Source: Escherichia coli | GTDB lineage: Bacteria > Pseudomonadota > Gammaproteobacteria > Enterobacterales > Enterobacteriaceae | NCBI RefSeq assembly: GCF_050920415.1 | Contig: NZ_CP169309.1 | Direction: 5' to 3' (one strand) | Length of the DNA: 64,000 nt | Part shown: positions 1 through 33,215 of the stretch, in pieces | Numbering within the stretch: position 1 is the first letter of the stretch | Layout of the letters: every line of letters starts with the position of its first letter | The notes under the pieces: model-generated | The model's input: the letters and a program-made list of their open reading frames with translations, nothing else | The model's database searches: none | What the model was told of the DNA's origin: nothing | Program-made: the position numbers and the translations under genes

Positions 1-134
1 CCAACGTCATTATCCTTGGCGATATCACGATTGGTAACAACGTCACCGTGGGGGCGGGCAGCGTGGTGCTCGACGCAATCCCGGACAACGCGCTGGTGGT
101 GGGAGAAAAAGCGCGAGTGAAGGTAATTAAATGA
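1..134 (+). CDS. wcaB: Colanic acid biosynthesis acetyltransferase WcaB, C-terminal fragment (5' end outside window)
   Basis: Open frame from the window edge to TGA at 132-134; translation ...NVIILGDITIGNNVTVGAGSVVLDAIPDN... shows hexapeptide-repeat acyltransferase character; stop overlaps the next ATG (ATGA); position upstream of wcaC. Confidence 0.8.
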   Translation, partial: NVIILGDITIGNNVTVGAGSVVLDAIPDNALVVGEKARVKVIK

Positions 135-1348
135 ATATTCTGCAATTTAATGTGCGACTGGCGGAAGGCGGGGCGGCAGGTGTGGCGTTAGATCTCCACC
201 AGCGCGCGCTGCAACAGGGGCTGGCGTCACATTTTGTCTACGGCTACGGCAAAGGTGGCAAAGAGAGCGTCAGCCATCAGAACTATCCGCAGGTCATCAA
301 ACATACGCCGCGGATGACCGCGATGGCGAACATTGCCCTGTTTCGTCTGTTTAATCGCGATCTGTTCGGCAATTTCAATGAGTTATATCGCACCATTACT
401 CGCACACCGGGACCGGTAGTCCTGCATTTTCATGTGCTGCACAGCTACTGGTTGAATCTTAAGAGCGTGGTGCGCTTTTGCGAAAAGGTGAAAAACCACA
501 AACCGGATGTCACTTTGGTCTGGACACTGCACGATCACTGGAGCGTTACCGGACGCTGTGCTTTTACCGACGGTTGCGAAGGCTGGAAAACGGGCTGCCA
601 GAAATGCCCGACCTTAAATAACTATCCGCCGGTGAAGATTGATCGCGCGCACCAGCTGGTGGCGGGCAAACGGCAGTTATTTCGCGAGATGCTGGCGCTG
701 GGCTGTCAGTTTATTTCCCCCAGCCAGCATGTGGCTGATGCTTTCAATAGTCTGTACGGTCCAGGGCGTTGCCGGATTATCAATAATGGCATTGATATGG
801 CAACCGAAGCGATTCTGGCAGACTTGCCTCCGGTGCGCGAAACCCAGGGCAAGCCGAAAATCGCGGTGGTGGCGCATGACCTGCGTTACGACGGCAAAAC
901 TAACCAGCAACTGGTGCGCGAGATGATGGCGCTGGGTGACAAAATCGAACTGCATACCTTTGGTAAGTTTTCGCCGTTCACCGCTGGTAACGTGGTTAAT
1001 CACGGCTTTGAAACTGACAAGCGCAAGTTGATGAGCGCGCTTAATCAGATGGATGCGCTGGTGTTCAGTTCTCGCGTCGATAACTACCCGCTGATTTTGT
1101 GTGAGGCGTTATCAATTGGTGTGCCGGTGATTGCCACCCATAGCGATGCGGCGCGGGAAGTGCTGCAAAAATCCGGCGGTAAAACCGTCAGCGAAGAAGA
1201 CGTGCTGAAACTGGTGCAGTTAAGCAAACCGGAAATCGCGCAGGCGATATTTGGTACCACGCTGGCTGAGTTCAGCCAACGCAGCCGCGCCGCCTACAGT
1301 GGACAACAGATGCTGGAGGAGTATGTCAACTTCTATCAGAATCTGTAG
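131..1348 (+). CDS. wcaC: Colanic acid biosynthesis glycosyltransferase WcaC
   Basis: 405-aa ORF; sequence recognised as WcaC (MNILQFNVRLAEGGAAGVALDL...); conserved wca gene order. Confidence 0.9.
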   Translation: MNILQFNVRLAEGGAAGVALDLHQRALQQGLASHFVYGYGKGGKESVSHQNYPQVIKHTPRMTAMANIALFRLFNRDLFGNFNELYRTITRTPGPVVLHFHVLHSYWLNLKSVVRFCEKVKNHKPDVTLVWTLHDHWSVTGRCAFTDGCEGWKTGCQKCPTLNNYPPVKIDRAHQLVAGKRQLFREMLALGCQFISPSQHVADAFNSLYGPGRCRIINNGIDMATEAILADLPPVRETQGKPKIAVVAHDLRYDGKTNQQLVREMMALGDKIELHTFGKFSPFTAGNVVNHGFETDKRKLMSALNQMDALVFSSRVDNYPLILCEALSIGVPVIATHSDAAREVLQKSGGKTVSEEDVLKLVQLSKPEIAQAIFGTTLAEFSQRSRAAYSGQQMLEEYVNFYQNL

Positions 1349-2543
1349 CTACCTGCTGCTGCCGCTGATTTACCTGCTGGTTAACGTCAAAATTGCCCAG
1401 CTTGGTGAAAGTTTCCCCATCACCATCGTCACTTTTTTACCTGTCTTGTTACTGCTGTTTTTAGAGCGCATCAGCGTTAAAAAATTGATGATTGCCTTAG
1501 GGATTGGTGCGGGACTCACGGCGTTTAACTACTTGTTTGGTCAGTCGTTGGATGCCAGTAAATACGTCACTTCAACCATGCTGTTTGTCTATATTGTGAT
1601 CATTATTGGCATGGTGTGGAGTATTCGCTTTAAAACGATTTCGCCACACAACCATCGCAAGATATTACGTTTCTTTTATCTGGTGGTGGGGCTGGTGGTG
1701 GCGCTGGCGGCGGTGGAGATGGCGCAAATTATCCTCACTGGCGGCAGCAGTATTATGGAGTCGATTTCGAAATATCTGATTTACAGCAACAGCTATGTGC
1801 TGAATTTCATTAAATTCGGCGGCAAGCGCACAACAGCACTTTATTTCGAACCGGCATTTTTCGCTCTGGCATTAATCTCAATTTGGCTCAGCATCAAACA
1901 GTTTGGTATCAAAACGCCTAAAACCGATGCTATGATTCTCGCAGGGATAATATTATCCGGATCGTTTTCAGGGGTTATGACCTTTATCCTGTTTTATTTG
2001 TTGGAGTGGGCGTTTCAATATCTGAACAAAGAGGCGATTAAGAAAAAGTTACCGTTAGCATTGATTTCTCTGGCTGTATTCCTGGTTGGTGTGGTAATCG
2101 CGTTTCCTTATATTTCCACCCGCTTGGGCGATTTAGGTACGGAAGGATCGTCATCGTATTATCGTATTGTCGGTCCACTGGTGATGGTCGGTTATTCTTT
2201 GAGCCATATTGACGGTGTAGTCAGATTTGGCTCACTTTATGAATATGTCGCATCATTCGGAATATTTAACGGTGCGGATGTCGGAAAAACCATAGACAAT
2301 GGTTTGTATCTGCTGATTATTTATTTTTCCTGGTTCGCAGTGCTTTTATCACTGTGGTACATGGGGAAAGTGATAAAAATGATGATCAACGCTTTTGGTG
2401 ATAATCGCAATTTTCGTGTGCAGCTCTATCTTTTTACTCCGGTGTCGCTGTTTTTTACCGGTTCGATATTTAGCCCGGAATATGCATTTTTAATCGTCTG
2501 TCCGTTTATTTTGCGAAAAGCGTTAAATATACACCCTAAATAA
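1323..2543 (+). CDS. wcaD: Colanic acid polymerase WcaD (multi-pass membrane protein)
   Basis: Listed ORF starts at 1251; internal ATG at 1323 (MSTSIRICSYLLLPL...) gives about 406 aa, matching WcaD; highly hydrophobic; overlaps the wcaC 3' end. Confidence 0.85.
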   Translation: MSTSIRICSYLLLPLIYLLVNVKIAQLGESFPITIVTFLPVLLLLFLERISVKKLMIALGIGAGLTAFNYLFGQSLDASKYVTSTMLFVYIVIIIGMVWSIRFKTISPHNHRKILRFFYLVVGLVVALAAVEMAQIILTGGSSIMESISKYLIYSNSYVLNFIKFGGKRTTALYFEPAFFALALISIWLSIKQFGIKTPKTDAMILAGIILSGSFSGVMTFILFYLLEWAFQYLNKEAIKKKLPLALISLAVFLVGVVIAFPYISTRLGDLGTEGSSSYYRIVGPLVMVGYSLSHIDGVVRFGSLYEYVASFGIFNGADVGKTIDNGLYLLIIYFSWFAVLLSLWYMGKVIKMMINAFGDNRNFRVQLYLFTPVSLFFTGSIFSPEYAFLIVCPFILRKALNIHPK

Positions 2544-2623
2544 TTCGAGTTGCAGGAAGTTGGTGACGCAGCGAATCCCCAGGAGCGTACACGAGTACGT
2601 GACTGGGGTGAGCGAGGAAAACC

Positions 2624-2655
<32 letters not shown>

Positions 2656-2669
2656 TACGAGGTAAGAAC

Positions 2670-3416
2670 ATGTTGCTTAGCATAATCACCGTTGCGTTTC
2701 GTAACCTCGAAGGGATAGTCAAAACACACGCCTCGCTGGCGCATCTGGCGCAGGCTGACGATATCAGCTTCGAATGGATTGTTGTCGATGGCGGTTCCAA
2801 TGACGGCACCGGTGAGTATCTGGAAAATCTCAATGGTATCTATAACCTACGCTTTGTCAGTGAACCAGATAAGGGCATCTACGACGCCATGAACAAAGGC
2901 ATTGCGATGGCACAAGGCAAGTTTGCGCTGTTTCTCAACTCGGGCGATATTTTTCATCAGGATGCCGCAAATTTTGTCCGTAGGTTAAAAATGCAAAAAG
3001 ATAACGTGATGATCACCGGCGATGCGCTGCTGGATTTTGGCGACGGGCATAAAATTAAACGTCGCGCCAAACCTGGCTGGTATATTTATCACAGCCTGCC
3101 CGCCAGCCATCAGGCGATATTTTTCCCGGTATCCGGCTTGAAAAAATGGCGTTATGACCTGGAATATAAAGTTTCTTCCGATTATGCGCTGGCGGCCAAA
3201 ATGTATAAAGCCGGTTATGCATTTAAAAAACTCAATGGCCTGGTGTCTGAATTTTCTATGGGTGGGGTATCTACCACCAATAATATGGAATTGTGTGCTG
3301 ACGCGAAAAAAGTCCAACGACAAATATTACATGTGCCTGGCTTCTGGGCTGAATTATCCTGGCATTTACGCCAGCGCACGACGGGTAAGACCAAAGCCTT
3401 ATATAACAAAGTCTGA
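2670..3416 (+). CDS. wcaE: Colanic acid biosynthesis glycosyltransferase WcaE (GT2 family)
   Basis: 248-aa ORF with GT2-like N-terminus ([10 protein letters not shown]...); gene order. Confidence 0.88.
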
Positions 3417-14991: not shown

Positions 14992-16208
14992 AGGTCGGCT
15001 TCTTCTTATTGAAATTTCCGCTGTCGTCGGAAACCTTCGTTCTCAACCAAATCACTGCGTTTATTGATATGGGCTTTGAGGTGGAGATTGTCGCACTGCA
15101 AAAAGGCGATACGCAAAACACCCACGCGGCATGGACGAAATATAACCTTGCCGCCAGAACTAGCTGGTTACAGGACGAACCACAAGGCAAAGTGGCGAAA
15201 CTGCGCCACCGCGCCAGCCAGACCTTACGCGGCATTCATCGTAAAAATACCTGGCAGGCGCTCAACCTCAAACGCTATAGTGCTGAGTCGCGGAACCTGA
15301 TTTTGTCTGCCATTTGTGGTCAGGTCGCAACACCGTTTCATGCTGATGTGTTTATCGCACATTTTGGCCCTGCGGGGGTAACCGCAGCAAAACTACGGGA
15401 ACTGGGTGTCATTCGCGGCAAAATTGCCACTATCTTCCACGGCATTGATATCTCCAGTCGGGAAGTGCTCAACCATTACACTCCCGAATATCAACAACTG
15501 TTTCGCCGTGGCGATTTGATGCTACCGATTAGCGATCTGTGGGCCGCAAGGCTGCAAAAAATGGGCTGCCCGAGGGAAAAAATTGCCGTATCGCGCATGG
15601 GTGTAGACATGACGCGCTTTAGCCCGCGTCCGGTAAAAGCGCCTGCAACGCCGCTGGAAATCATTTCCGTCGCACGCTTAACCGAGAAAAAAGGCCTGCA
15701 TGTGGCGATCGAAGCCTGCCGTCAGTTGAAAGAGCAGGGCGTGGCATTTCGCTATCGCATCCTCGGCATTGGCCCGTGGGAACGACGCCTGCGCACCCTC
15801 ATCGAACAATATCAACTGGAAGATGTGGTAGAGATGCCGGGCTTTAAACCAAGCCACGAAGTGAAGGCGATGCTCGACGACGCGGATGTCTTCCTGTTGC
15901 CTTCGGTAACGGGTGCTGACGGTGATATGGAAGGTATTCCGGTGGCGCTAATGGAAGCGATGGCAGTCGGTATTCCGGTTGTTTCTACTCTGCATAGCGG
16001 AATTCCGGAACTGGTGGAGGCCGATAAATCCGGCTGGCTGGTGCCTGAGAACGATGCTCGTGCACTGGCGCAACGTCTGGCGGCGTTTAGCCAGCTGGAC
16101 ACCGACGAACTTACTACGGTTGTCAAACGTGCGCGCGAAAAAGTCGAACACGATTTTAACCAGCAGGTGATTAACCGAGAACTCGCCAGCTTGTTGCAGG
16201 CTTTATAG
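14988..16208 (+). CDS. wcaL: Colanic acid biosynthesis glycosyltransferase WcaL (GT4 family)
   Basis: 406-aa ORF; start overlaps the wcaK stop; gene order. Confidence 0.88.
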
Positions 16209-21094: not shown

Positions 21095-21970
21095 ATGAAA
21101 ACGCGTAAAGGTATTATTTTAGCAGGTGGTTCTGGTACTCGTCTTTATCCTGTGACTATGGCAGTCAGTAAACAGCTGTTACCTATTTATGATAAACCGA
21201 TGATCTATTACCCGCTCTCTACACTGATGTTGGCGGGTATTCGCGATATTCTAATTATAAGTACGCCACAGGATACTCCTCGTTTTCAACAACTGCTGGG
21301 TGACGGGAGTCAGTGGGGCCTTAATCTTCAGTACAAAGTGCAACCGAGCCCAGATGGTCTTGCGCAGGCATTTATCATCGGTAAAGAGTTTATCGGTAGT
21401 GATGATTGTGCTCTGGTTCTCGGTGATAATATCTTCTACGGTCACGATCTGCCGAAGTTAATGGATGCCGCTGTTAACAAAGAAAGTGGTGCAACGGTAT
21501 TTGCCTATCACGTTAATGATCCTGAACGCTATGGTGTCGTTGAGTTTGACAAAAACGGTACGGCAATTAGCCTGGAAGAAAAACCGCTACAGCCAAAAAG
21601 TAATTATGCGGTAACTGGGCTTTATTTCTATGATAACGACGTTGTAGAAATGGCAAAAAATCTTAAGCCATCTGCCCGAGGTGAACTGGAAATTACCGAT
21701 ATTAATCGTATCTATATGGAACAGGGGCGTTTGTCTGTCGCTATGATGGGGCGTGGTTATGCATGGCTGGATACAGGGACGCATCAAAGCCTTATTGAAG
21801 CAAGTAACTTCATTGCCACCATTGAAGAGCGTCAGGGATTAAAAGTATCTTGCCCGGAAGAGATTGCTTATCGTAAAGGGTTTATTGATGCTGAGCAGGT
21901 AAAAGTATTAGCCGAACCGCTTATCAAGAATCAATATGGTCAATATTTGCTGAAAATGATCAGCGAATAG
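21095..21970 (+). CDS. rmlA: Glucose-1-phosphate thymidylyltransferase
   Basis: 291-aa [24 protein letters not shown]... Confidence 0.93.
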
Positions 21971-21984
21971 TATGTGGGAACTCA

Positions 21985-22398
21985 ATGATGGATATTAAAT
22001 TAATCTCTTTGCAAAAACATGGGGATGAGCGTGGTGCATTAATTGCTCTTGAAGAGCAACGAAATATACCTTTCGAAGTCAAAAGAATATATTACATACT
22101 CGAGACTCTTAAGGGAGTAAGACGCGGATTTCATGCGCACAAGGTTACTCGTCAGTTAGCTATTGTAGTCAAGGGAGCTTGTAAATTTCATCTGGATAAT
22201 GGTAAAGAAACAAAGCAGGTGGAACTTAATGATCCAACAATTGCGTTGCTGATAGAACCCTATATATGGCATGAAATGTATGATTTTAGTGATGATTGTG
22301 TGCTGCTTGTAATTGCGGATGATTTCTATAAAGAGTCTGATTATATACGCAATTATGATGATTTTATTAGAAGAGTAAATTCAATTGAGAATTCATAA
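21985..22398 (+). CDS. fdtA: dTDP-4-keto-6-deoxyglucose 3,4-ketoisomerase (FdtA/QdtA-type cupin)
   Basis: 137-aa ORF; small cupin of the WxcM C-terminal/FdtA type (...RGFHAHK...WHEMYDFS...); sits between rmlA and an acetyltransferase/aminotransferase pair. Galacto- versus gluco-configured product cannot be told by eye. Confidence 0.7.
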
Positions 22399-22852
22399 GC
22401 TAAGTGACGTCCAGACAACATCAATTGGTGATGGAACAACTATCTGGCAGTTTGTTGTAATACTAAAAGGTGCTGTAATTGGTAATAATTGCAACATCTG
22501 TGCAAATACCTTGATTGAAAATAACGTTGTAATTGGTAACAATGTCACAGTCAAAAGCGGTGTGTATATTTGGGATGGCGTTAAAATAGAGGATAATGTT
22601 TTTATTGGTCCTTGTGTAGCATTTACAAATGATAAGTATCCTCGCTCTAAAGTCTATCCTGATGAATTTTTGCACACAATAATACGCAAAGGAGCATCAA
22701 TAGGTGCTAATGCAACCATCCTGCCAGGAATTGAAATTGGTGAAAAAGCAATCGTTGGTGCGGGGAGTGTCGTAACCAAAAATGTACCGCCATGCGCAAT
22801 AGTAGTAGGTAATCCAGCTCGATTTATTAAATGGGTAGAGGATAATGAATAA
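22385..22852 (+). CDS. fdtC: dTDP-3-amino-3,6-dideoxyhexose N-acetyltransferase (hexapeptide-repeat, FdtC-type)
   Basis: 155-aa ORF with left-handed beta-helix repeats ([23 protein letters not shown]...); probable TTG start at 22385 overlapping the fdtA 3' end, start uncertain. Confidence 0.7.
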
Positions 22853-23951
22853 AATTGATTTTTTAGATCTTTTTGCAATTAACCAGCGACAGCACAAAGA
22901 ATTAGTCTCTGCGTTTAGTAGGGTGCTAGATTCTGGTTGGTATATCATGGGCGAAGAACTTGAGCAGTTCGAGAAAGAGTTCGCAGAATACTGTGGAGTT
23001 AAGTATTGCATTGGTGTAGCAAATGGCCTTGATGCGTTGATACTAGTATTGAGGGCATGGAAAGAACTCGGCTATCTAGAAGACGGTGACGAGGTATTAG
23101 TACCGGCAAATACATATATTGCTTCTATTCTTGCTATAACAGAGAACAAACTTGTTCCTGTTCTTGTTGAACCAGATATAGAAACTTATAATATTAATCC
23201 TGCTTTAATTGAAAATTACATTACGGAAAAAACTAAAGCAATATTACCGGTTCACTTATATGGTCTATTGTGCAATATGCCAGAAATTAGTGCAATCGCA
23301 AGAAAATATAATCTGTTGATTCTTGAAGATTGTGCACAAGCACATGGTGCAATACGTGATGGTCGCAAAGCTGGAGCTTGGGGGGATGCTGCAGGATTTA
23401 GTTTTTATCCAGGAAAAAACCTTGGAGCTTTGGGGGATGCGGGAGCTGTTACTACAAATAATGCAGAATTATCCTCAACTATAAAAGCTTTGCGAAATTA
23501 TGGGTCACATAAGAAATATGAAAATATTTATCAGGGATTGAATAGTCGATTGGATGAACTGCAAGCAGCCTTATTGCGTGTAAAAATCCATACATTACCG
23601 GAAGATACTGCGATTCGGCAAAGGATTGCTGAAAAATATATTCGTGAAATAAAAAACCCTGCGATTACGTTACCAGTGTACGAAGGCCAAGGTGCGCACG
23701 TTTGGCATTTATTTGTAGTAAGAATCGCTAATCGTGAAAAATTCCAGTCATACTTATCAGAGAAGGGTATCCAAACCTTAATTCACTATCCATTACCACC
23801 CCATAAGCAGCAAGCATATCAAAATATGTCTAGTCTTAGCCTTCCAATTACTGAGCAAATTCATGATGAAGTCATTTCTTTACCTATAAGTCCGGTAATG
23901 AGTGAAGATGATGTCAATTATGTAATCAAAGTGGTCAATGATTACAAGTAA
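22845..23951 (+). CDS. fdtB: dTDP-3-keto-6-deoxyhexose 3-aminotransferase (DegT/DnrJ/EryC1 family, PLP-dependent)
   Basis: 368-aa ORF of DegT/ArnB aminotransferase type; context with fdtA/fdtC. Confidence 0.78.
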
Positions 23952-25213
23952 TGAAAAAATTTCTTCAGGTAACTATATTATCCGCTATCTATACATTCAT
24001 TAAAATGATTGCGGGTTTTATCATCGGTAAGGTAGTAGCAATTTATACAGGGCCATCAGGGGTAGCAATGCTTGGCCAAGTGCAAAGTTTAATCACAATA
24101 GTTGCAGGTACTACTTCTGCACCTGTAAGCACCGGTCTTGTTCGATATACTGCGGAAAATTGGCAAGAAGGACAGGAAGCATGCGCGCCATGGTGGCGCG
24201 CATGCTTAAGGGTTACTCTGTTTTTATTCTTGCTTATTATTCCCGTTGTTATTTTATTGTCGAAAAATATTAGCGAGTTACTTTTTAGCGATGGACAATA
24301 CACATGGTTAATCATTTTCGCATGTTGTATATTGCCATTCTCCATTTTAAATACATTGATCGCTTCAGTTTTAAATGGTCAACAATTCTATAAGCAATAT
24401 ATATTGGTTGGGATGTTTTCTGTATTCATTTCTACTATGTTTATGATTTTGTTGATTGTAGCTTATAATCTTAAAGGTGCATTGATTGCCACGGCTATAA
24501 ATAGTGCTATTGCTGGTCTTGTATTAGTTTTATTTTGTCTCAATAAATCTTGGTTTAGATTTAAATATTGGTGGGGTAAAACGGATAAAGACAAAATTAT
24601 AAAAATTATTCATTATACTCTGATGGCTTTGGTTTCTGTTATCTCCATGCCTACAGCATTGATGTGTATTAGAAAAATATTGATTGCTAAAACTGGTTGG
24701 GAGGATGCAGGGCAATGGCAGGCCGTATGGAAGATATCTGAGGTCTATCTTGGTGTTGTGACAATTGCTTTGTCAACATATTTCTTACCAAGATTGACAA
24801 TTATAAAAACAAGTTTCCTTATAAAAAAAGAGGTAAATAGTACTATATTATACATAGTATCTATTACTTCATTCATGGCGTTGAGTATCTATTTATTCCG
24901 CGATTTGGTAATAACAGTTTTATTTACTGAACAGTTTCGCTCAGCTCGTGAATTATTTTTGTTACAACTCGTAGGGGATGTAATAAAAATTGCTGGTTTT
25001 CTTTATGCATACCCTCTTCAAAGTCAGGGGCATACTAAACTATTCATCAGTTCAGAAGTGATTTTTTCTATGCTCTTTATCGTTACCACCTATATTTTTG
25101 TTGTAAATTATGGAGTACATGGTGCTAACATAAGTTATGTCATTACATATAGTTTATATTTTGTGTTTGCATTTGTGTTTACTAATTTTATTAATGTCAG
25201 AAGAATTAATTAA
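23951..25213 (+). CDS. wzx: O-antigen flippase Wzx
   Basis: 420-aa, about 12-TM, AT-rich membrane protein immediately after the sugar-nucleotide genes. Confidence 0.8.
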   Translation: MKKFLQVTILSAIYTFIKMIAGFIIGKVVAIYTGPSGVAMLGQVQSLITIVAGTTSAPVSTGLVRYTAENWQEGQEACAPWWRACLRVTLFLFLLIIPVVILLSKNISELLFSDGQYTWLIIFACCILPFSILNTLIASVLNGQQFYKQYILVGMFSVFISTMFMILLIVAYNLKGALIATAINSAIAGLVLVLFCLNKSWFRFKYWWGKTDKDKIIKIIHYTLMALVSVISMPTALMCIRKILIAKTGWEDAGQWQAVWKISEVYLGVVTIALSTYFLPRLTIIKTSFLIKKEVNSTILYIVSITSFMALSIYLFRDLVITVLFTEQFRSARELFLLQLVGDVIKIAGFLYAYPLQSQGHTKLFISSEVIFSMLFIVTTYIFVVNYGVHGANISYVITYSLYFVFAFVFTNFINVRRIN

Positions 25214-25222
25214 AAACAGAGG

Positions 25223-26278
25223 TTGAAATTGAAAATAATTATACCTGTCTTAGGATTTGGCAGGGCTGGTGGTGAAAGAGTTCTTTCTAAGCTGGCAACT
25301 GAATTGATGAATTATGGACATGATGTAAGTTTTGTTGTTCCAGATAATAGAACTAATCCATATTATGCTACCACAGCAAAAATCGTCACGAGTAAATCTA
25401 GTCAAAACCGTGTAAAAATATTGAGAATCATTAAAAATTACTATAATCTGTGGCGTAAATGCATAGAATTAAATCCTGATGCTGTAGTTGCTAGTTTTCA
25501 TTTGACTGCCTATCTTGTCGCATTATTACCAATCACCCGTCGTAAGAAATATTATTATATTCAGGCGTATGAAGTTAATTTTTTTGATAATATAATATGG
25601 AAATTAATAGCGGGTTTAACATATTATTTACCGCTTAAAAAAATACTAAATAGTCCTAATTTGCTTCCTCATAAACATGATGATTTTATAGGAGTAGTTC
25701 CTGCAGGAGTAGATTTAAACGTTTTCTATCCGAAACCATCAAATAGGTTATTAAATGGTCACACATCAATAGGGATTATTGGTAGAAAAGAGAAGCACAA
25801 AGGAACTAGCGAAATTATTTCAGTATTGTGTTCACTGGAAAATAAAGTTGGAATTATAATTAATATTGCGATCTATCTTGAAGAAGTTGATAAGGAGCGT
25901 TTAATTGCTGCCGGGTTTCAGGTTAATTTTTTTCCGATTACTTCTGATTTAGAATTGGCATCTTTTTATCGAAGCAATGACATCATGATTGCAGCTGGGT
26001 TAATTGAAGATGGCGCTTTCCATTATCCTTGTGCTGAATCAATGGCTTGTGGTTGTCTTGTTATTTCAAATTATGCGCCACTTACTGAAACTAACAGTGT
26101 ACTTAAATTAGTCAAGTTTGATGCTTGCAAACTTGGTAAAGCAATTAATCTTTGTCTCAATCTTGACCTAGAAGAAAAAAGCAAAGAAATCCAATCTAAT
26201 ATTTCTGTGTTGAATAAATATGACTGGAAAATTGTTGGTGAAACTTTCAATAGTTTATTGTTAGATGCAAATAAATAG
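25223..26278 (+). CDS. O-antigen glycosyltransferase (GT1/GT4-like)
   Basis: About 350-aa ORF with non-ATG start (TTG at 25223 or 25229; AGAGG RBS at 25217-25221 favours 25229); N-terminus KIIIPVLGFGRAGGERV... typical of GT4-like transferases. Confidence 0.7.
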   Translation: MKLKIIIPVLGFGRAGGERVLSKLATELMNYGHDVSFVVPDNRTNPYYATTAKIVTSKSSQNRVKILRIIKNYYNLWRKCIELNPDAVVASFHLTAYLVALLPITRRKKYYYIQAYEVNFFDNIIWKLIAGLTYYLPLKKILNSPNLLPHKHDDFIGVVPAGVDLNVFYPKPSNRLLNGHTSIGIIGRKEKHKGTSEIISVLCSLENKVGIIINIAIYLEEVDKERLIAAGFQVNFFPITSDLELASFYRSNDIMIAAGLIEDGAFHYPCAESMACGCLVISNYAPLTETNSVLKLVKFDACKLGKAINLCLNLDLEEKSKEIQSNISVLNKYDWKIVGETFNSLLLDANK

Positions 26279-26298
26279 TATACGTTGATGGGGAAAAT

Positions 26299-26856
26299 AT
26301 GAATATTGTTAAAACTGATATTCCAGATCTGATCGTTCTTGAACCAAAAGTGTTTAGTGATGAACGCGGCTTTTTTATGGAGAGTTATAATCAGATTGAA
26401 TTTGAGAAGACAATAGGAAGGCACGTAAATTTTGTTCAGGATAATCATTCAAAATCTAGTAAAGGCGTACTACGTGGGTTACATTATCAATTAGCACCGT
26501 ATGCACAGGCTAAATTAGTTCGATGTGTTGTAGGTCAGGTATTTGATGTTGCTGTTGATCTTAGAAAAAATTCACCAACGTTCAAAAAATGGTTTGGAAT
26601 AACCCTTTCCGCAGAAAATAAACGACAATTATGGATACCTGAAGGATTTGCTCATGGTTTCTTGGTGACCAGTGATGAAGCTGAGTTCATTTATAAAACA
26701 ACGAACTACTATGCTCCTGGTCATCAGCAAGCAATTATTTACAATGATCCTATTTTAAACATCGATTGGCCTTTCTGCAGTAGTGCTCTGTCATTATCGC
26801 AAAAAGATCAAGAAGCAAAATTATTTTCAGAATTATTGGACAGTGAACTGTTCTAA
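26299..26856 (+). CDS. rmlC: dTDP-4-dehydrorhamnose 3,5-epimerase
   Basis: 185-aa ORF MNIVKTDIPDLIVLEPKVFSDERGFFMESYN...; canonical RmlC cupin; separated from rmlBDA. Confidence 0.92.
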   Translation: MNIVKTDIPDLIVLEPKVFSDERGFFMESYNQIEFEKTIGRHVNFVQDNHSKSSKGVLRGLHYQLAPYAQAKLVRCVVGQVFDVAVDLRKNSPTFKKWFGITLSAENKRQLWIPEGFAHGFLVTSDEAEFIYKTTNYYAPGHQQAIIYNDPILNIDWPFCSSALSLSQKDQEAKLFSELLDSELF

Positions 26857-26923
26857 TAAAGTGTGCCACCTTATCCGTCTGAAGGATAGGTGGTTGCTTA
26901 TATTTTTTGAGTATGTTTGTATA

Positions 26924-27886
26924 ATGACAGAAAATAGTCCGAAATATAAACACGATAAAAGCTTAATAAGTTTTATCTACTTATTTTTTATATTTACACT
27001 TATTGTAGGCTTCATTATCGCAAATACCCAGTTTTTGGGGCGAAGTAGAGACTATGATAATTATATACAGATCTTTTCTGGTGAAGAAGGGGAGGGGGTT
27101 CTTGAATTATTTTATCGCGGATTGATGTTAATAACGACCAGCTATGAAATTATCATTTTTATAATTTTAACATGTTCTTTTTTTATAAAGGCAAGGTTTC
27201 TTGCTAACTATTCGCGTAATTTTTCAGGCTTGACCTTATTCTTTGTTTATTATGCAAGCGTTGCACTTTGGGTTTTAGATTATACTCAATTCAGAAATGG
27301 TCTATGTATTTCCATTTTAATGTTTTCCGTATACTATTTATTTATAAATAAACCGACTTATTTTTATTTCTCGCTATTATGTGCAATTGCAACTCATTGG
27401 TCTGCTTTGCCTTTTTTGCTTTTATATCCTTTTGTCTATTCAAAAAAAATAAGACACCTTGGTTATTTTTGTTTCAGTATTCTTGTTTTGATTGCGATCT
27501 CAGGAGAAGGAAAAGAGATCATTTCTTTTATAAGAAATTTTGGAGTGGGACAAAAAATAGGAAACGAAGCTGGTGTAAATTTAATAAATTCATTATCCCT
27601 TACCGCTATTTTCTGGTTTGTTATTAGTTACATATCAAGCATTGGAAATGAAAGGAGAAATTTAAGACTTTTCTTTTGTTATGGTGTCATGCAATACGTG
27701 ACTTTTAGCCTTTTCTCTCTACCTGTTATGGCTTTCCGTATTTTGGAAATGTATTTTTTCCTTATGTTAACCATTGGGGTGTTTATTAAGCAAAAAAAGA
27801 ATTATTATTTTGTTTTTTGCAAAGTGTTAATTTTATTGTATCTAACATACTATTATCATATGGTTTTTGGAGTGATTAATGTGTAA
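26924..27886 (+). CDS. wzy: O-antigen polymerase Wzy
   Basis: Listed ORF starts at 26783; ATG at 26924 (MTENSPKYKHDKSLISFIYLFF...) gives about 320 aa; very AT-rich, multi-TM, with a large predicted loop. Confidence 0.7.
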   Translation: MTENSPKYKHDKSLISFIYLFFIFTLIVGFIIANTQFLGRSRDYDNYIQIFSGEEGEGVLELFYRGLMLITTSYEIIIFIILTCSFFIKARFLANYSRNFSGLTLFFVYYASVALWVLDYTQFRNGLCISILMFSVYYLFINKPTYFYFSLLCAIATHWSALPFLLLYPFVYSKKIRHLGYFCFSILVLIAISGEGKEIISFIRNFGVGQKIGNEAGVNLINSLSLTAIFWFVISYISSIGNERRNLRLFFCYGVMQYVTFSLFSLPVMAFRILEMYFFLMLTIGVFIKQKKNYYFVFCKVLILLYLTYYYHMVFGVINV

Positions 27887-28766
27887 GGCTAAGGTGTTGG
27901 CTATAATTGTTACTTACAACCCGGAAATTATTCGTTTGACGGAATGTATTAACTCTTTAGCCCCACAAGTTGAGAGAATAATTCTTGTAGATAATGGCTC
28001 AAATAATAGTCATTTGATAAAAAATATCATTATTAATAACCTTGAAATTATTTTGCTTTCGGAAAACAAAGGCATTGCATTTGCTCAGAACCATTGTGTT
28101 AAGAAGGGTCTGGAAGCAAAAGAGTTTGACTATTTATTTTTCTCAGATCAGGATACTTGCTTTCCTAGCGATGTTATTGAAAAACTTAAGAGTACATTTA
28201 CGAAAAATAATAAAAAAGGTAAAAATGTTGCTTGTGCTTCTCCTTTTTTTAAAGACCATCGTTCAAATTATATGCATCCGTCAGTCAGCCTAAATATTTT
28301 TACGAGTACAAAAGTTATATGTAGTGAAGTAGACGATGATCTTTATCCCTCGCATGTTATTGCTTCTGGGATGTTAATGTCTCGCGAGGCATGGCGCGTC
28401 GTCGGACCATTTTGTGAAAAACTCTTTATAGACTGGGTTGATACAGAATGGTGTTGGCGTGCATTAGCTAATAGTATGATTATTGTTCAGACACCATCAG
28501 TCATCATTTCTCATGAACTTGGGTATGGGCAGAAAATTTTTGCTGGTCGATCTGTTACAATACATAATTCTTTCAGAAATTTTTATAAAATACGTAATGC
28601 AATATACTTAATGCTGCATTCAAATTATAGCTTCAAGTATCGTTATCATGCTTTTTTTCATGCGACAAAGAATATTGTATTTGAAATTTTATATTCGAAA
28701 GAAAAATTAAATTCACTGAAGGTTTGTTTTAAAGCTGTACGTGATGGTATGTTCAATAATTTTTAA
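27879..28766 (+). CDS. O-antigen glycosyltransferase, GT2 family (probable rhamnosyltransferase)
   Basis: 295-aa ORF; N-terminus LAIIVTYNPE...VDNGSNNS and a DxD-like region (FFSDQDT) typical of GT2. Confidence 0.72.
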   Translation: MCKAKVLAIIVTYNPEIIRLTECINSLAPQVERIILVDNGSNNSHLIKNIIINNLEIILLSENKGIAFAQNHCVKKGLEAKEFDYLFFSDQDTCFPSDVIEKLKSTFTKNNKKGKNVACASPFFKDHRSNYMHPSVSLNIFTSTKVICSEVDDDLYPSHVIASGMLMSREAWRVVGPFCEKLFIDWVDTEWCWRALANSMIIVQTPSVIISHELGYGQKIFAGRSVTIHNSFRNFYKIRNAIYLMLHSNYSFKYRYHAFFHATKNIVFEILYSKEKLNSLKVCFKAVRDGMFNNF

Positions 28767-28796
28767 TACAAAAATAGTTAGGCTCAAGGTGTTTAA

Positions 28797-29873
28797 ATGG
28801 AAGAAAATAATATGAAGACGGTCGCTGTAGTTGGCACAGTGGGTGTTCCTGCTTGTTATGGTGGGTTTGAATCACTTGTTCAGAATCTAATTGATTATCA
28901 ATCTGATGGTATACAATATCAGATATTTTGCTCTTCAAAAAAATATAATAAAAAATTAAAAAATTATAAAAATGCAGAATTAATCTATTTGCCGATAAAT
29001 GCCAATGGCGTCTCTAGCATAATTTATGACATTATGTGTTTAATTATTTGTTTATTCAAAAGGCCAGATGTTGTTTTAATATTGGGGGTATCTGGTTGTT
29101 TATTTCTACCAATTTATAAACTATTTTCAAAATCAAAGATCATTGTCAACATCGATGGGCTTGAATGGCGTAGAAATAAATGGGGAACGTTTGCTAAGAA
29201 ATTTCTCAAAATATCTGAGGCGATATCTATTAGAATAGCTGATATTATCATTTCAGATAATCAAGCAATAGCTGATTATGTGGAAAATAAGTACAATAAA
29301 AAAAGCGTAGTTATAGCTTATGGGGGAGATCATGCTACTAATCTTAGTACACCGATAGACGATGATCAAAAAAAAGATGGTTATTATTTGGGGCTTTGTA
29401 GGATAGAGCCTGAGAATAATATAGAAATGATTTTGAATGCCTTCATTAATACAGATAAAAAAATTAAATTTATGGGTAATTGGGATAATAGCGAGTATGG
29501 GCGCCAGCTAAAAAAATATTATTCAAACTATCCAAATATCACACTACTAGAACCTAACTATAATATCGAAGAACTTTATAAACTAAGAAAAAATTGCCTT
29601 GCATACATTCATGGACACTCGGCTGGTGGAACAAACCCTTCTTTAGTTGAAGCGATGCATTTTAATATTCCTATTTTTGCTTTCGATTGTGACTTTAATC
29701 GTTACACAACTAATAATTTAGCTCATTACTTTAATGATTCTGAACAACTGACCTCATTAGCAGACAGTTTGTCTTTTGGAAATCTTAAATGTCAAGTATT
29801 AGATTTAAAAAAATATGCTGAAGATATGTATAACTGGAGGCATATAGCTGCTATGTATGAATCTATTTATTAA
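28797..29873 (+). CDS. O-antigen glycosyltransferase (GT1-like)
   Basis: 358-aa ORF (alternative start MKTVAVVG at 28812); GT1-like C-terminal motifs; last gene of the O-unit block. Confidence 0.68.
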   Translation: MEENNMKTVAVVGTVGVPACYGGFESLVQNLIDYQSDGIQYQIFCSSKKYNKKLKNYKNAELIYLPINANGVSSIIYDIMCLIICLFKRPDVVLILGVSGCLFLPIYKLFSKSKIIVNIDGLEWRRNKWGTFAKKFLKISEAISIRIADIIISDNQAIADYVENKYNKKSVVIAYGGDHATNLSTPIDDDQKKDGYYLGLCRIEPENNIEMILNAFINTDKKIKFMGNWDNSEYGRQLKKYYSNYPNITLLEPNYNIEELYKLRKNCLAYIHGHSAGGTNPSLVEAMHFNIPIFAFDCDFNRYTTNNLAHYFNDSEQLTSLADSLSFGNLKCQVLDLKKYAEDMYNWRHIAAMYESIY

Positions 29874-30039
29874 ACGCATTAACAATAATATAATTGACCT
29901 TATATAGCTATCAGAGTAAAAATGTAACGCTGATTTTTTTGTTAAATGATGCGCATTATATATTTAATGATTAAAATACTCTTGATCAAATAAAACTATT
30001 TAATTAATAATGTAAAATTTCATTATGCTATTTAAGATG

Positions 30040-30108
30040 TGAAAAATAACTTAAATAAATGATGGGATATATTTATATTATCCCGGTTATAGACAAGCCC
30101 AGGGAAAG
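30040..30108 (+). repeat. Degenerate duplicate of the 5' end of the H-repeat (ISAs1) transposase gene
   Basis: 30057-30108 (aaatgatgggatatatttatattatcccggttatagacaagcccagggaaag) is about 85% identical to 30257-30308 inside the transposase ORF; the ATG equivalent is mutated. Confidence 0.6.
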
Positions 30109-30244
30109 ATCATCAGAAGTACACTTTTTGTACTAAATAATTCGCATTTTATGTTTAAAAATATGAGATATTCCTCATTACCTGAAGCTGTTTTTTATTG
30201 CTTATACATGATCAAATACTCCTTACATAATTAAGGAGAACAAA

Positions 30245-31381
30245 ATGGAACTTAAAAAATTGATGGAACATATTTCTATTATCCCCGATTACAGACAAGC
30301 CTGGAAAGTGGAACATAAATTATCGGATATTCTACTGTTGACTATTTGTGCCGTCATTTCTGGTGCAGAAGGCTGGGAAGATATAGAGGATTTTGGAGAA
30401 ACACATCTCGATTTTTTGAAGCAATATGGTGATTTTGAAAATGGTATTCCTGTTCACGATACCATTGCCAGAGTTGTATCCTGTATCAGTCCTGCAAAAT
30501 TTCACGAGTGCTTTATTAACTGGATGCGAGATTGCCATACTTCAGATGATAAAGACGTCATCGCAATTGATGGAAAAACACTCCGGCATTCTTATGACAA
30601 GAGTCGCCGTAAGGGAGCGATTCATGTCATTAGTGCGTTCTCAACAATGCACAGTCTGGTCATCGGACAGATCAAGACGGATGAGAAATCCAATGAGATT
30701 ACAGCCATCCCTGAACTTCTTAACATGTTGGATATTAAAGGGAAAATTATCACAACTGATGCGATGGGTTGCCAGAAAGATATTGCAGAGAAGATACAAA
30801 AACAGGGAGGTGATTATTTATTCGCTGTAAAAGGAAATCAGCGTCGGCTTAATAAAGCCTTTGAAGAAAAATTCCCACTGAAAGAATTAAATAATCCAGA
30901 GCATGACAGTTATGCAATTAGTGAAAAGAGTCACGGCAGAGAAGATATCCGTCTTCATATTGTTTGCGATGACCCTGATGAACTTATTGATTTCACGTTT
31001 GAATGGAAAGGACTGAAAAAATTATGCGTGGCAGTCTCCTTTCGCTCAATAATAGCAGAGCAAAAGAAAGAGCCCGAAATGATGGTCAGATATTATATCA
31101 GTTCTGCTGATTTAACCGCTGAGAAGTTTGCGACAGCGATTTGAAATCACTGGCACGTGGAGAATAAGCTGCACTGGCGTCTGGACGTGGTAATGAATGA
31201 AGACGATTGTAAAATAAGAAGAGGAAATGCAGCAGAATTATTTTCTGGGATACGGCACATTGCTATTAATATTTTGACGAATGATAAGGTATTCAAGACA
31301 GGATTAAGACGTAAGATGCGAAAAGCAGCCATGGACAGAAACTATCTCGCGTCAGTCCTTGCGGGGAGCGGGCTTTACTAG
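30245..31381 (+). mobile_element. ISAs1-family (H-repeat-associated) transposase gene interrupted by a single in-frame TGA (pseudogene)
   Basis: 299-aa ORF (30245-31144) and 74-aa ORF (31157-31381) are in the same frame, separated only by TGA at 31142-31144; the combined about 378-aa product has the ISAs1 motif ...[21 protein letters not shown]... with the stop at a conserved Arg position. Confidence 0.8.
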
Positions 31382-31453
31382 TCCTTCCTCGCTCAGTGAC
31401 AGAATATTGAATGAATAGCATTAAAATTATTAAATAATATGGTTTAATTCGAC

Positions 31454-33081
31454 ATGAACTTTAAGAATATAATTAGAATAATACTACCTTTTTTTATTTT
31501 CTTGAGTATTTTACTTTACTCAGGAAGGGCGGATAGTGTTTTGTTATTTACTATCGAATACACACTTGCAAGTATGGCAATCTTTCTGATAAAAAGAAAG
31601 TTTATAAGCAATATCTTGTGGGGGATTTATCTCTCAATTTTAGGTGTACAGGCAGCATCGCTATTTAGTTCAGGACAATATTTGATGCCTCTTGCCTTGT
31701 CGAATGCTGCAGAAGTTGAATCGCTAGGCATTGGCGAGGTAATCAAGGTTTTTTCTATTTTTATTTTATTTGTTATAGTTTCATTCGTTACGATGCCTTC
31801 TGGTGCTCTAGTCGGCCGTATTAAATATTATAAATTTAATTTTTTCTGTATAGTATTATTGCTTGTGTGTTCTTTCATAAGCACGGGACCGGTATATGCT
31901 TTTTATGAAACAGCAAAATTGTACTATTTACAGCAAACCTTTAAGCCTAGTGAGAAGATCGGTGATGCCGGGAAATCTTTTTTAAAAACAAGTGTTTTTA
32001 TTAACCCTCTACAGAATAACAACAACTTCAAAGGGCGTAATGTTATTGTAATCTTTGCTGAGGGATTTTCATCGGAGATTATTGGTAATTCAAAAATGGC
32101 GCATTTTCCAATTACGCCTAATTTAGATAAGTTATCTACTGAAGCACTAAGTTTTAAAAATTATTATAACCATACAGCAGTAACCTTTCGAGGTTTAAGA
32201 GGCCAGTTAACTTCTGGCTATCAATTTCGTGATGGGTTAACTGATGCTGGTACTGGTATTGCACAATTATCTAACGTAGAAATTAATAATATTTATCTTC
32301 ATCGTCAAACATCTTTGCCGAATATATTGAAAGAGTATGGCTATAAAAGTTATTTTATAGCGTCTACAGAAAAAATAGCCCACTCAACACTATGTTGAAA
32401 ACGCTTAATTTTGATAAAGTTCTTGGTATGGGAGATTTTATTGGTTATCAACGCGACAGAATGACTGATAAGCAAACATTTAATGCACTGCAATATTTTT
32501 TACGTTCTCAAGAAAATAAAAACGAACGCTTTTTTATTGGTGTGTACCCATCTGGTACTCATCATGGTCAAGATAGTCCAAATGAAAAATATTTTGATGG
32601 TAGCAATCCTCTCTACAATAAATTCTATAACTATGATTTTCAGTTGGGGAAGTTTGTTGATTTTTTTCGGCGCAGTTCATTTTATGGCAATACGTTGTTG
32701 ATAATTACATCGGATCATTCTACATTTCCTTCGACAGAATATAAGAAATCATTTAACAGCGATTCTCGTTATTTTGTGGACAAAATACCATTTCTGATCA
32801 TTGGGAAAAATATTACGCCTGAAGTTTTAGATGCAGGAGGTGAAAATTCTTTAAGTTTCGCGCCAACAATATTGCACATGTTAGGGATTCAGTATTCAAT
32901 GAATTATTTTTTGGGGTGTTCTCTTTTTGATAAGACGTGCACATCACCATTCTCACATCTTTCTGCTATTGGTAGTGATTATTTCAATACAGGCAAAGAA
33001 AATCATGTTGAACTAATTCAAAATAATAGTGGTAATGAATTAATAAAATTAGCCGAACGTTTTTATAACATTAGTGGCTAA
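31454..33081 (+). pseudogene. Sulfatase/alkaline-phosphatase-superfamily membrane enzyme (LtaS/phosphoglycerol- or phosphoethanolamine-transferase-like), frameshifted
   Basis: 314-aa ORF (31454-32398) has N-terminal TM helices then a sulfatase-like domain (NVIVIFAEGFSSE...); the domain continues in another frame as a 229-aa ORF (32392-33081; ...LLIITSDHSTFPS...); frame change lies near an A6 run at 32370-32375. Confidence 0.6.
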
Positions 33082-33215
33082 ATATAAAAATGTACAAGTT
33101 ACAAGCAATTTCCTAATTAGGAAATATATGACTGTAAAAGAAGATATAAATTAAGCTATTCTTTATCTTCAATAAGCCGCAACCCCGCGGTGATCACCCC
33201 TGACAGGAGTAAACA

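What the first reader, a model, noticed from the sequence alone, without database searches (positions are those of the whole stretch)
30245..31381. H-repeat (ISAs1-family) transposase inactivated by a single in-frame TGA at a conserved Arg position
The 299-aa and 74-aa ORFs share a frame and are separated only by TGA at 31142-31144. Read through, they give a full-length about 378-aa ISAs1 transposase with the conserved ...AI(R)[17 protein letters not shown]... block, so the stop most likely arose by one CGA-to-TGA transition. The element sits exactly at the 3' edge of the O-antigen genes, where H-repeats are thought to help O-antigen cassette exchange.
Basis: partly seen in the sequence, partly recalled or inferred. 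Interest (0 to 1): 0.45.

Follow-up and report, generated by a model that had tools for sequence, protein, structure and literature searches.

The report
Dead H-repeat transposase gene, O2/O50 cluster
This is an ordinary, already annotated pseudogene: one copy of the common E. coli H-repeat insertion sequence, lying inside an O2/O50-type O-antigen gene cluster, lost its transposase through a single C-to-T change that turned a conserved arginine codon into a stop.

Summary
ORF 30245-31144 (299 aa) ends at TGA 31142-31144. The same frame runs on without another stop to TAG 31379-31381, giving 378 codons.

Read through, the protein is a full-length ISAs1-family (H-repeat/ISEc1) DDE transposase. 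Every intact copy compared has CGA at this codon, and Arg is kept in 124 of 127 distant relatives. The stop lies six codons before the conserved Glu306, so the 299-aa product should be catalytically dead.

It is not a sequencing error: the exact 299-aa product is on 15 public contigs, all at this locus. It is rare, found in 2 of 5,426 complete E. coli genomes. NCBI's PGAP pipeline already labels the identical sequence "ISAs1 family transposase, pseudo, internal stop".

One claim is wrong. The element is not at the 3' edge of the O-antigen genes. A low-GC sulfatase/LTA-synthase-like gene, itself frameshifted, lies between it and gnd. The cassette shared with O2 strain NC101 runs from about 21,900 to 33,200, with the H-repeat inside it. 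The element's right terminal repeat is also degenerate.

Verdict: real, ordinary, already known. Low interest.

The parts
30100..31391 (+). Full-length H-repeat (H-rpt / ISEc1-like, ISAs1 family) insertion sequence, 1292 bp
   Evidence: Similarity to K-12 yhhI H-rpt and to three other E. coli copies begins at CAGGGAAAGATC (30100) and ends at the position matching the canonical ...TCTTGCCCTG end (31391). The flanks are unrelated.
30100..30115 (+). Left terminal inverted repeat, CAGGGAAAGATCATCA (canonical)
   Evidence: Identical in the window, NC101 and cq9 ydcC. K-12 yhhI matches over the same 16 nt and differs two bases further in.
31376..31391 (+). Right terminal inverted repeat, degenerate (TACTAGTCCTTCCTCG against canonical TCGTAATCTTGCCCTG)
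   Evidence: K-12 yhhI, cq9 ydcC and RM8352 share the exact end ...TCGTAATCTTGCCCTG. The window differs at 4 of the last 10 bases, and NC101 differs further (...CCTTA).
30245..31381 (+). Transposase pseudogene, 378 codons including the internal stop
   Evidence: PGAP annotates the identical sequence in NZ_CP169399.1 as 'ISAs1 family transposase', pseudo, 'internal stop'.
30245..31144 (+). Truncated ORF, 299 aa. It keeps the N-terminal DDE_Tnp_1_assoc domain, D109 (30569-30571) and D172 (30758-30760)
   Evidence: The exact product is in public databases on 15 contigs.
31142..31144 (+). Premature stop TGA at codon 300 (ancestral CGA, Arg); C>T at 31142
   Evidence: CGA in NC101 and four paralogues. 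The 30-mer with T is in 2 of 5,426 genomes, one place each, both at this locus. The 30-mer with C is in 198 genomes at 256 places.
31145..31381 (+). Orphaned 3' part of the gene (codons 301-378 and TAG). It encodes the conserved H302, W303, E306 (31160-31162), H310, W311, D314, E319, D320 and the C-terminal helices
   Evidence: Conservation in 127 relatives. The AlphaFold model places 292-316 on one long helix after a beta insertion, as in Tn5 transposase.
29934..30099 (+). Degraded 5' fragment (leader plus codons 2-19) of a second H-repeat copy, abutting the left end of the full element
   Evidence: Direct repeat 30048-30084 / 30249-30285 at 86% identity, and 30082-30099 / 30284-30301 at 89%. 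Pairwise alignment. Also present in NC101, with a 6-bp deletion.
31454..33081 (+). Neighbouring sulfatase / LTA-synthase-like gene (probably the O2 cluster's last gene), split into 314-aa and 229-aa ORFs by loss of one A from an A7 tract (A6 at 32370-32375)
   Evidence: NC101 has one 542-aa ORF. There are 13 differences in 1629 nt, one of them the single-base deletion. GC is 0.32, like the O-antigen genes.

Best explanation
A complete 1292-bp copy of the E. coli H-repeat insertion sequence (ISAs1 family, ISEc1-like) lies inside an O2/O50-family O-antigen cluster, between the last glycosyltransferase gene and a sulfatase-like gene. In one rare lineage a single C>T transition at 31142 changed the conserved Arg300 codon CGA to TGA. 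Translation therefore stops after 299 residues. The product keeps the N-terminal DDE_Tnp_1_assoc domain and the two conserved Asp residues (D109, D172). It lacks the helix that carries the conserved Glu306 and the C-terminal helices, so it cannot catalyse transposition. Shown here: the mutation, its ancestral state, its inheritance, the family membership and the fold. Inferred: that D109/D172/E306 are the catalytic triad and that the truncated protein is inactive. The gene is a decaying pseudogene in a copy whose right terminal repeat is already degenerate. It has no evident effect on O-antigen synthesis.
For: Frame and stop. Family: Pfam DDE_Tnp_1_assoc plus DDE_Tnp_1; NF033564 at 416.7 bits, full model. 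Ancestral CGA in the orthologue and four paralogues. Arg300 conserved in 124/127, D109 99%, D172 99%, E306 125/127; the A6 alignment has E306 invariant. Fold: pLDDT 94.7, pTM 0.92; best solved matches are Tn5 transposase, E 1e-9, TM 0.52-0.54. The strand/helix order places D109 in the first catalytic-core strand (105-113), D172 immediately after strand 168-171 and E306 on helix 292-316 after a beta insertion. This is the Tn5/IS4 layout, from established knowledge of Tn5 (D97/D188/E326). Inherited allele: the exact 299-aa product is on 15 contigs at the same locus, including complete chromosomes AP025751 and AP025747, and these loci are 99.88-100% identical to the window. PGAP already calls it 'internal stop'. 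The TGA 30-mer occurs only at this locus, so the mutation arose in place and was not copied from a paralogue.
Against: No experiment shows that the 299-aa product is inactive or even made. Residue-level superposition on Tn5 E326 was not available, so the catalytic role of E306 rests on conservation and topology. Low-level UGA read-through in E. coli could give traces of full-length protein. Transposition of E. coli H-repeats has reportedly never been observed (PMC3032704), so 'inactivation' may be of a gene that was already not working as a transposase.
Confidence: 0.95

Rival explanations
1. The TGA is a sequencing or assembly error and the gene is really intact (CGA or TGG).
For: A single-base difference from all other copies examined.
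Against: The same 30-mer with T is in two complete RefSeq genomes. One of them, MFDS1022581, differs from the window at 5 of 29,501 bases, so it is not the same record. The exact 299-aa product is on 15 contigs from different projects (E. coli M863, 1.2741, AP025747, AP025751, a metagenome assembly), always at this locus.
Confidence: 0.01
2. The TGA is recoded (selenocysteine or programmed read-through), so a full-length transposase is made in a regulated way.
For: The downstream 78 codons are still open and nearly unchanged. Of the 14 window-specific changes, 2 lie after the stop, one of them the substitution A352T.
Against: The codon is CGA in all relatives compared, so no conserved recoding site exists. 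RNA folding of 31136-31215 is no better than shuffled sequence (z = 0.30, 118 of 200 shuffles fold as well), so there is no SECIS-like hairpin. The open downstream frame is expected for a recent mutation: TGA-bearing loci differ from the window by 0-4 substitutions in 6.9 kb.
Confidence: 0.02
3. The 299-aa product is kept for a function, for example as a DNA-binding competitor that represses the other H-repeat copies in the genome. It has the N-terminal domain but no catalytic Glu or C-terminal helices.
For: The allele persists in at least 15 assemblies. Truncated transposases acting as inhibitors are known: Tn5 Inh is among the fold matches (1b7e). There is a median of five H-repeat copies per genome to act on.
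Against: The allele is rare, 2 of 5,426 complete genomes, and nearly clonal, as expected for a neutral recent mutation. The neighbouring sulfatase-like gene is frameshifted, and in some carriers the DUF1972 glycosyltransferase gene is fragmented too, so the picture is general decay. The same copy is broken differently elsewhere: an IS1 insertion in strain HCP4S3_I4. Tn5 Inh lacks the N terminus, the opposite truncation.
Confidence: 0.03

Closest known systems
H-repeat (H-rpt) / ISEc1 of E. coli K-12, e.g. yhhI next to rhsB (ISAs1 family)
   Same: Same element. It is collinear from CAGGGAAAGATC to the right end, 1292 against 1291 bp. The ORF is 95.4% identical in DNA, with the same 378-codon length and the same left inverted repeat.
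   Different: TGA instead of CGA at codon 300; a degenerate right inverted repeat; it lies in the O-antigen cluster rather than an Rhs element.
The orthologous H-repeat in the O2/O50 O-antigen cluster of O2:H6 strain NC101 (NZ_CP072787.1; WP_000420771.1)
   Same: Same position between the DUF1972 glycosyltransferase gene and the sulfatase-like gene, with the same upstream H-repeat remnant and the same kind of degenerate right end.
   Different: NC101 has CGA and an intact 378-aa ORF, and an intact 542-aa downstream gene. The two H-repeat ORFs differ at 28 of 1137 nt (97.5%), while the flanking O-specific genes are 99.2-100% identical.
H-repeat remnant at the D1/E junction of the Salmonella enterica group D2 O-antigen cluster
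   Same: An H-repeat inside an O-antigen cluster. It is the published basis for the idea that H-repeats mediate O-antigen cluster recombination (PMC3715488).
   Different: There the remnant sits exactly at the junction of two parental clusters. Here the element is internal to the shared cassette, and the identity breakpoints lie elsewhere.
Tn5 transposase (IS50, IS4 family) and its inhibitor form
   Same: Best solved structural matches. Same order of catalytic-core strands, beta insertion and long helix carrying the acidic residue.
   Different: About 10% sequence identity; no match by sequence search of the PDB; a different N-terminal domain (DDE_Tnp_1_assoc). A fold relative, not a family member.

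Membership tests
ISAs1 family transposase (NCBIfam NF033564; Pfam PF13808 + PF01609) | Whole-protein match to the curated family model above its cut-off | tested here: met
   416.7 bits against a cut-off of 70, model 1-314/314, residues 29-344 of the read-through translation.
ISAs1 family transposase (NCBIfam NF033564; Pfam PF13808 + PF01609) | Architecture: N-terminal DDE_Tnp_1_assoc followed by a DDE_Tnp_1 catalytic domain | tested here: met
   PF13808 at 8-94 (E 1.5e-33); PF01609 at 102-343 (E 3.7e-30).
ISAs1 family transposase (NCBIfam NF033564; Pfam PF13808 + PF01609) | A complete acidic triad in the translated product | tested here: not met
   D109 and D172 are in the 299-aa product. E306 (98% conserved) is encoded after the TGA. 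The gene is a member by descent; its product is not a functional member.
ISAs1 family insertion sequence (element level) | Matching terminal inverted repeats at both ends | tested here: inconclusive
   The left end is canonical. The right end differs from the canonical end of three other copies at 4 of its last 10 bases, and only 9 of 16 positions pair with the left repeat, against 12 of 16 in K-12 yhhI (pairing counted by eye from those alignments).
ISAs1 family insertion sequence (element level) | Direct target-site duplication flanking the element | tested here: not met
   The left flank ...GACAAGCC and the right flank CTCAGTGA... share no repeat. The left flank is itself an H-repeat fragment.
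ISAs1 family insertion sequence (element level) | Demonstrated transposition | not testable with these tools
   PMC3032704 states that transposition of H-rpt has not been observed.
E. coli H-repeat / ISEc1 subgroup | Near-identity in DNA over the whole 1.29-kb element to the K-12 H-rpt | tested here: met
   52 differences in the 1137-nt ORF against yhhI (95.4%), collinear ends. Matches in 5,339 of 5,426 E. coli genomes, median 5 places per genome.
Selenocysteine / programmed UGA recoding site | A conserved UGA in relatives and a stem-loop just downstream | tested here: not met
   Relatives have Arg codons. Folding z-score 0.30.

The most novel reading that the evidence does not exclude
The truncated 299-aa protein, which keeps the N-terminal end-binding region but lacks the catalytic Glu and the C-terminal helices, is retained as a trans-acting repressor or competitor of the other H-repeat copies in these genomes. 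Alternatively, the pseudogene is periodically repaired by gene conversion from those copies; the 5' half of this copy already shows a patch shared with paralogues.
Probability: 0.04. Interest if true: 0.3.

Novelty: already known. Interest (0 to 1): 0.07.

Why it matters
It matters very little beyond correct annotation. The locus should be labelled as an ISAs1/H-repeat transposase pseudogene with an internal stop, as PGAP already does. It should not be called as two genes of 299 and 74 aa. The TGA is a clean single-nucleotide marker of a rare sublineage that carries an O2/O50-family O-antigen cluster. It travels with a frameshift in the neighbouring sulfatase-like gene. It adds one more example of slow decay of H-repeat copies in O-antigen clusters. 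It neither supports nor tests the idea that H-repeats drive O-antigen cassette exchange.

Tried and rejected
1. Sequencing error: rejected, because independent assemblies carry the allele.
2. Natural termination at this position: rejected, because relatives run to 376-378 aa and have Arg at this column.
3. Selenocysteine or programmed read-through: no structure after the TGA and no conserved UGA.
4. TGA imported by gene conversion from a paralogue that already carried it: rejected, because the TGA 30-mer occurs once per genome and only at this locus. By contrast, a window-specific variant patch at 30529-30539 is shared with other H-repeat copies in 1,351 genomes.
5. H-repeat as the recombination border of the O-specific cassette: not seen in the comparison with NC101.
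6. Sequence search of solved structures: only a chance CheY hit at E = 1.1. The fold search was needed to reach Tn5.
7. Literature searches combining H-repeat or ISAs1 with O50 or O-antigen gene cluster found nothing specific to this locus. The O1/O2 cluster paper mentions wekS as a gene of the O2 cluster but not the H-repeat.
8. The promoter/terminator scan of 29800-31600 gave counts no higher than shuffled sequence and no + strand terminator.

Full report
**Observation.** The window holds ORF 30245-31144 (+, 299 aa) ending in TGA at 31142-31144, and ORF 31157-31381 (+, 74 aa, GTG start). The two are in the same frame, since 912 = 304 x 3. The four codons between them are sense codons. Reading through the TGA gives 378 codons ending at TAG 31379-31381.

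**What the gene is.** The read-through translation matches Pfam DDE_Tnp_1_assoc (8-94) and DDE_Tnp_1 (102-343, whole model). It also matches the NCBIfam equivalog model for ISAs1-family transposases over its full length, at 416.7 bits against a cut-off of 70. In DNA the ORF is 95.4% identical to the K-12 H-repeat gene yhhI. Similar sequence is present in 5,339 of 5,426 complete E. coli genomes, with a median of five places per genome. So this is one copy of the ordinary E. coli H-repeat (H-rpt / ISEc1-like) element.

**The element.** Alignment with four other copies fixes its ends.
- The left end is CAGGGAAAGATCATCA at 30100.
- The right end is at 31391, giving 1292 bp.
- The left repeat is canonical.
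- The right repeat (…TAGTCCTTCCTCG) differs at 4 of its last 10 bases from the end shared exactly by K-12 yhhI, cq9 ydcC and RM8352 (…TAATCTTGCCCTG).
- The orthologous copy in NC101 is degenerate there too.
- No target-site duplication is visible.

**The mutation.** The orthologous copy in the O2:H6 strain NC101 has CGA at codon 300, an intact 378-aa ORF, and the same neighbours. K-12 yhhI, cq9 ydcC, RM8352 and 90-3040 also have C at 31142. A 30-mer centred on the T, which megablast's 28-base word forces to match at that base, occurs in 2 of 5,426 genomes. It occurs once in each, at this locus. The same 30-mer with C occurs at 256 places in 198 genomes. So the stop arose by one C>T transition in place.

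**Is the Arg conserved?** Among 127 full-length family representatives that are 36-54% identical to the query, the column holds R in 124 and K in 2. None ends there. Close homologues are typically 376-378 aa.

**Is it real?**
- The exact 299-aa product is on record for 15 contigs, eight of them longer than 1 Mb. They include E. coli M863, E. coli 1.2741, AP025747, AP025751 and a metagenome contig.
- It always lies between the DUF1972 glycosyltransferase gene and the split sulfatase gene, upstream of gnd.
- These loci are 99.88-100% identical to the window over up to 6.9 kb.
- The window differs from strain MFDS1022581 at 5 of 29,501 bases.
- PGAP annotates the identical sequence in that strain as "ISAs1 family transposase", pseudo, "internal stop".

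The allele is therefore inherited, rare, nearly clonal and already annotated.

**Consequence for the protein.**
- The most conserved acidic residues of the family are D109, D172 and E306, at 98-99%.
- An AlphaFold model built on 84 sequences is confident (pLDDT 94.7, pTM 0.92). Its best solved matches are Tn5 transposase structures, at E about 1e-9 and TM 0.52-0.54.
- The model's order of elements is: strand 105-113 with D109; strand 168-171 followed by D172; a beta insertion at 221-286; then a long helix 292-316 carrying R300, H302, W303, E306 and H310.
- That is the Tn5/IS4 arrangement, in which the third catalytic residue sits on the helix after the insertion. This last point is established knowledge of Tn5; the residue-level overlay was not available here.
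- The stop at 300 removes most of that helix and everything after it.
- I infer that the 299-aa product cannot catalyse transposition. This is inference, not measurement.

**Alternatives.** RNA folding of the 80 nt around and after the TGA is no better than shuffled sequence (z = 0.30). Relatives carry Arg codons. So selenocysteine or programmed recoding is very unlikely. A retained regulatory role for the truncated protein cannot be excluded, but nothing supports it:
- the allele is rare;
- neighbouring genes are decaying as well;
- the same copy is broken by an IS1 insertion in another strain.

The window is an O2/O50-family O-antigen cluster: galF, rmlBDA, fdtA, fdtC, fdtB, wzx, GT4, rmlC, wzy, GT2 and a DUF1972 glycosyltransferase gene. 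These are followed by the H-repeat, a sulfatase/LTA-synthase-like gene, and gnd, ugd, wzzB and his.
- The H-repeat is not at the 3' edge. The sulfatase-like gene (31454-33081) has the same low GC (0.32) as the O-specific genes, whereas the H-repeat is at 0.39-0.41 and gnd at 0.49.
- A paper on O1/O2 clusters refers to wekS as a gene of the O2 cluster that resembles the last ORF of another cluster (PMC5293828). That wekS is this gene is my inference.
- A 400-bp identity scan against NC101 shows 87-96% up to about 21,900, then 99-100% from there to about 33,200, then 90-96% in gnd. The only dip inside the cassette is 96% over 30,005-30,804.
- So the borders of the shared cassette are at rmlA/fdtA and at the start of gnd, and the H-repeat lies inside it.
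- The proposal that H-repeats mediate O-antigen recombination is published for Salmonella group D2 (PMC3715488). This locus does not test it.

**Verdict.** This is a real, correctly read, single-nucleotide pseudogenisation of a very common insertion-sequence transposase. It is already flagged by the standard annotation pipeline and has no sign of unusual biology. Interest is low.

Noticed in passing
window 31454-33081 (A tract at 32370-32375): The sulfatase / LTA-synthase-like gene just downstream is split into 314-aa and 229-aa ORFs by loss of one A from an A7 tract. NC101 has one 542-aa ORF, with 13 differences in 1629 nt. Its best NCBIfam hits are weak matches to phosphoglycerol transferases. 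Public data hold several length variants (465, 534, 542 aa), and the exact fragments are on more contigs (36 and 80) than the TGA allele.
   Followed up: partly
window 29934-30099: A degraded 5' fragment of a second H-repeat (leader plus codons 2-19) directly abuts the left end of the full element, so the intergenic region after the last glycosyltransferase gene is mostly old H-repeat debris. H-repeats next to or inside other H-repeats recur elsewhere: ybfQ/ybfD in strain 90-3040 and a tandem pair in RM8352.
   Followed up: partly
window 30005-30804: The 5' half of the H-repeat is a divergence island: 96% identity to NC101 inside a cassette that is otherwise 99-100% identical, with 20 synonymous against 7 non-synonymous codon differences over the whole ORF. 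A window-specific variant patch at 30529-30539 is shared with other H-repeat copies in 1,351 genomes, which points to gene conversion between paralogues.
   Followed up: partly
window about 21,900 and about 33,200: There are sharp identity breakpoints against O2:H6 strain NC101: 87-96% in rmlBDA and gnd, and 99-100% between them. The O-specific cassette from fdtA to the sulfatase-like gene has evidently moved between backgrounds as a block.
   Followed up: partly
window 31376-31391; L002 about 15369-15384: The right terminal inverted repeat of this H-repeat copy is degenerate in both the TGA lineage and NC101, so the copy may be immobile regardless of its transposase.
   Followed up: partly
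window 22385-22852: fdtC (a hexapeptide-repeat acyltransferase) is an uninterrupted 155-codon ORF from a TTG start, identical in NC101. PGAP nevertheless annotates it as two 'incomplete' pseudogene fragments in both RefSeq genomes, which is probably an annotation artefact.
   Followed up: partly
window 30944-30946 (codon 234) and 31238-31240 (codon 332): This copy has Asp at position 234, where 92% of the family and the other E. coli copies have Glu. All three E. coli H-repeat proteins compared have Leu332, where 94% of distant relatives have Asn. Together with the statement that H-rpt transposition has never been observed, this raises the question of whether the E. coli subgroup is active at all.
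   Followed up: no
L004 1557-2629; L005 1551-2576: In two of the TGA-bearing strains the DUF1972 glycosyltransferase gene upstream of the H-repeat is also broken into small ORFs, so some members of this lineage may no longer make the O antigen.
   Followed up: no
L002 28853-29355 against L001 28576-29001: NC101 carries the yefM-yoeB toxin-antitoxin pair between hisL and yeeZ. The lineage of the window (strain MFDS1022581) has no annotated gene there.
   Followed up: no
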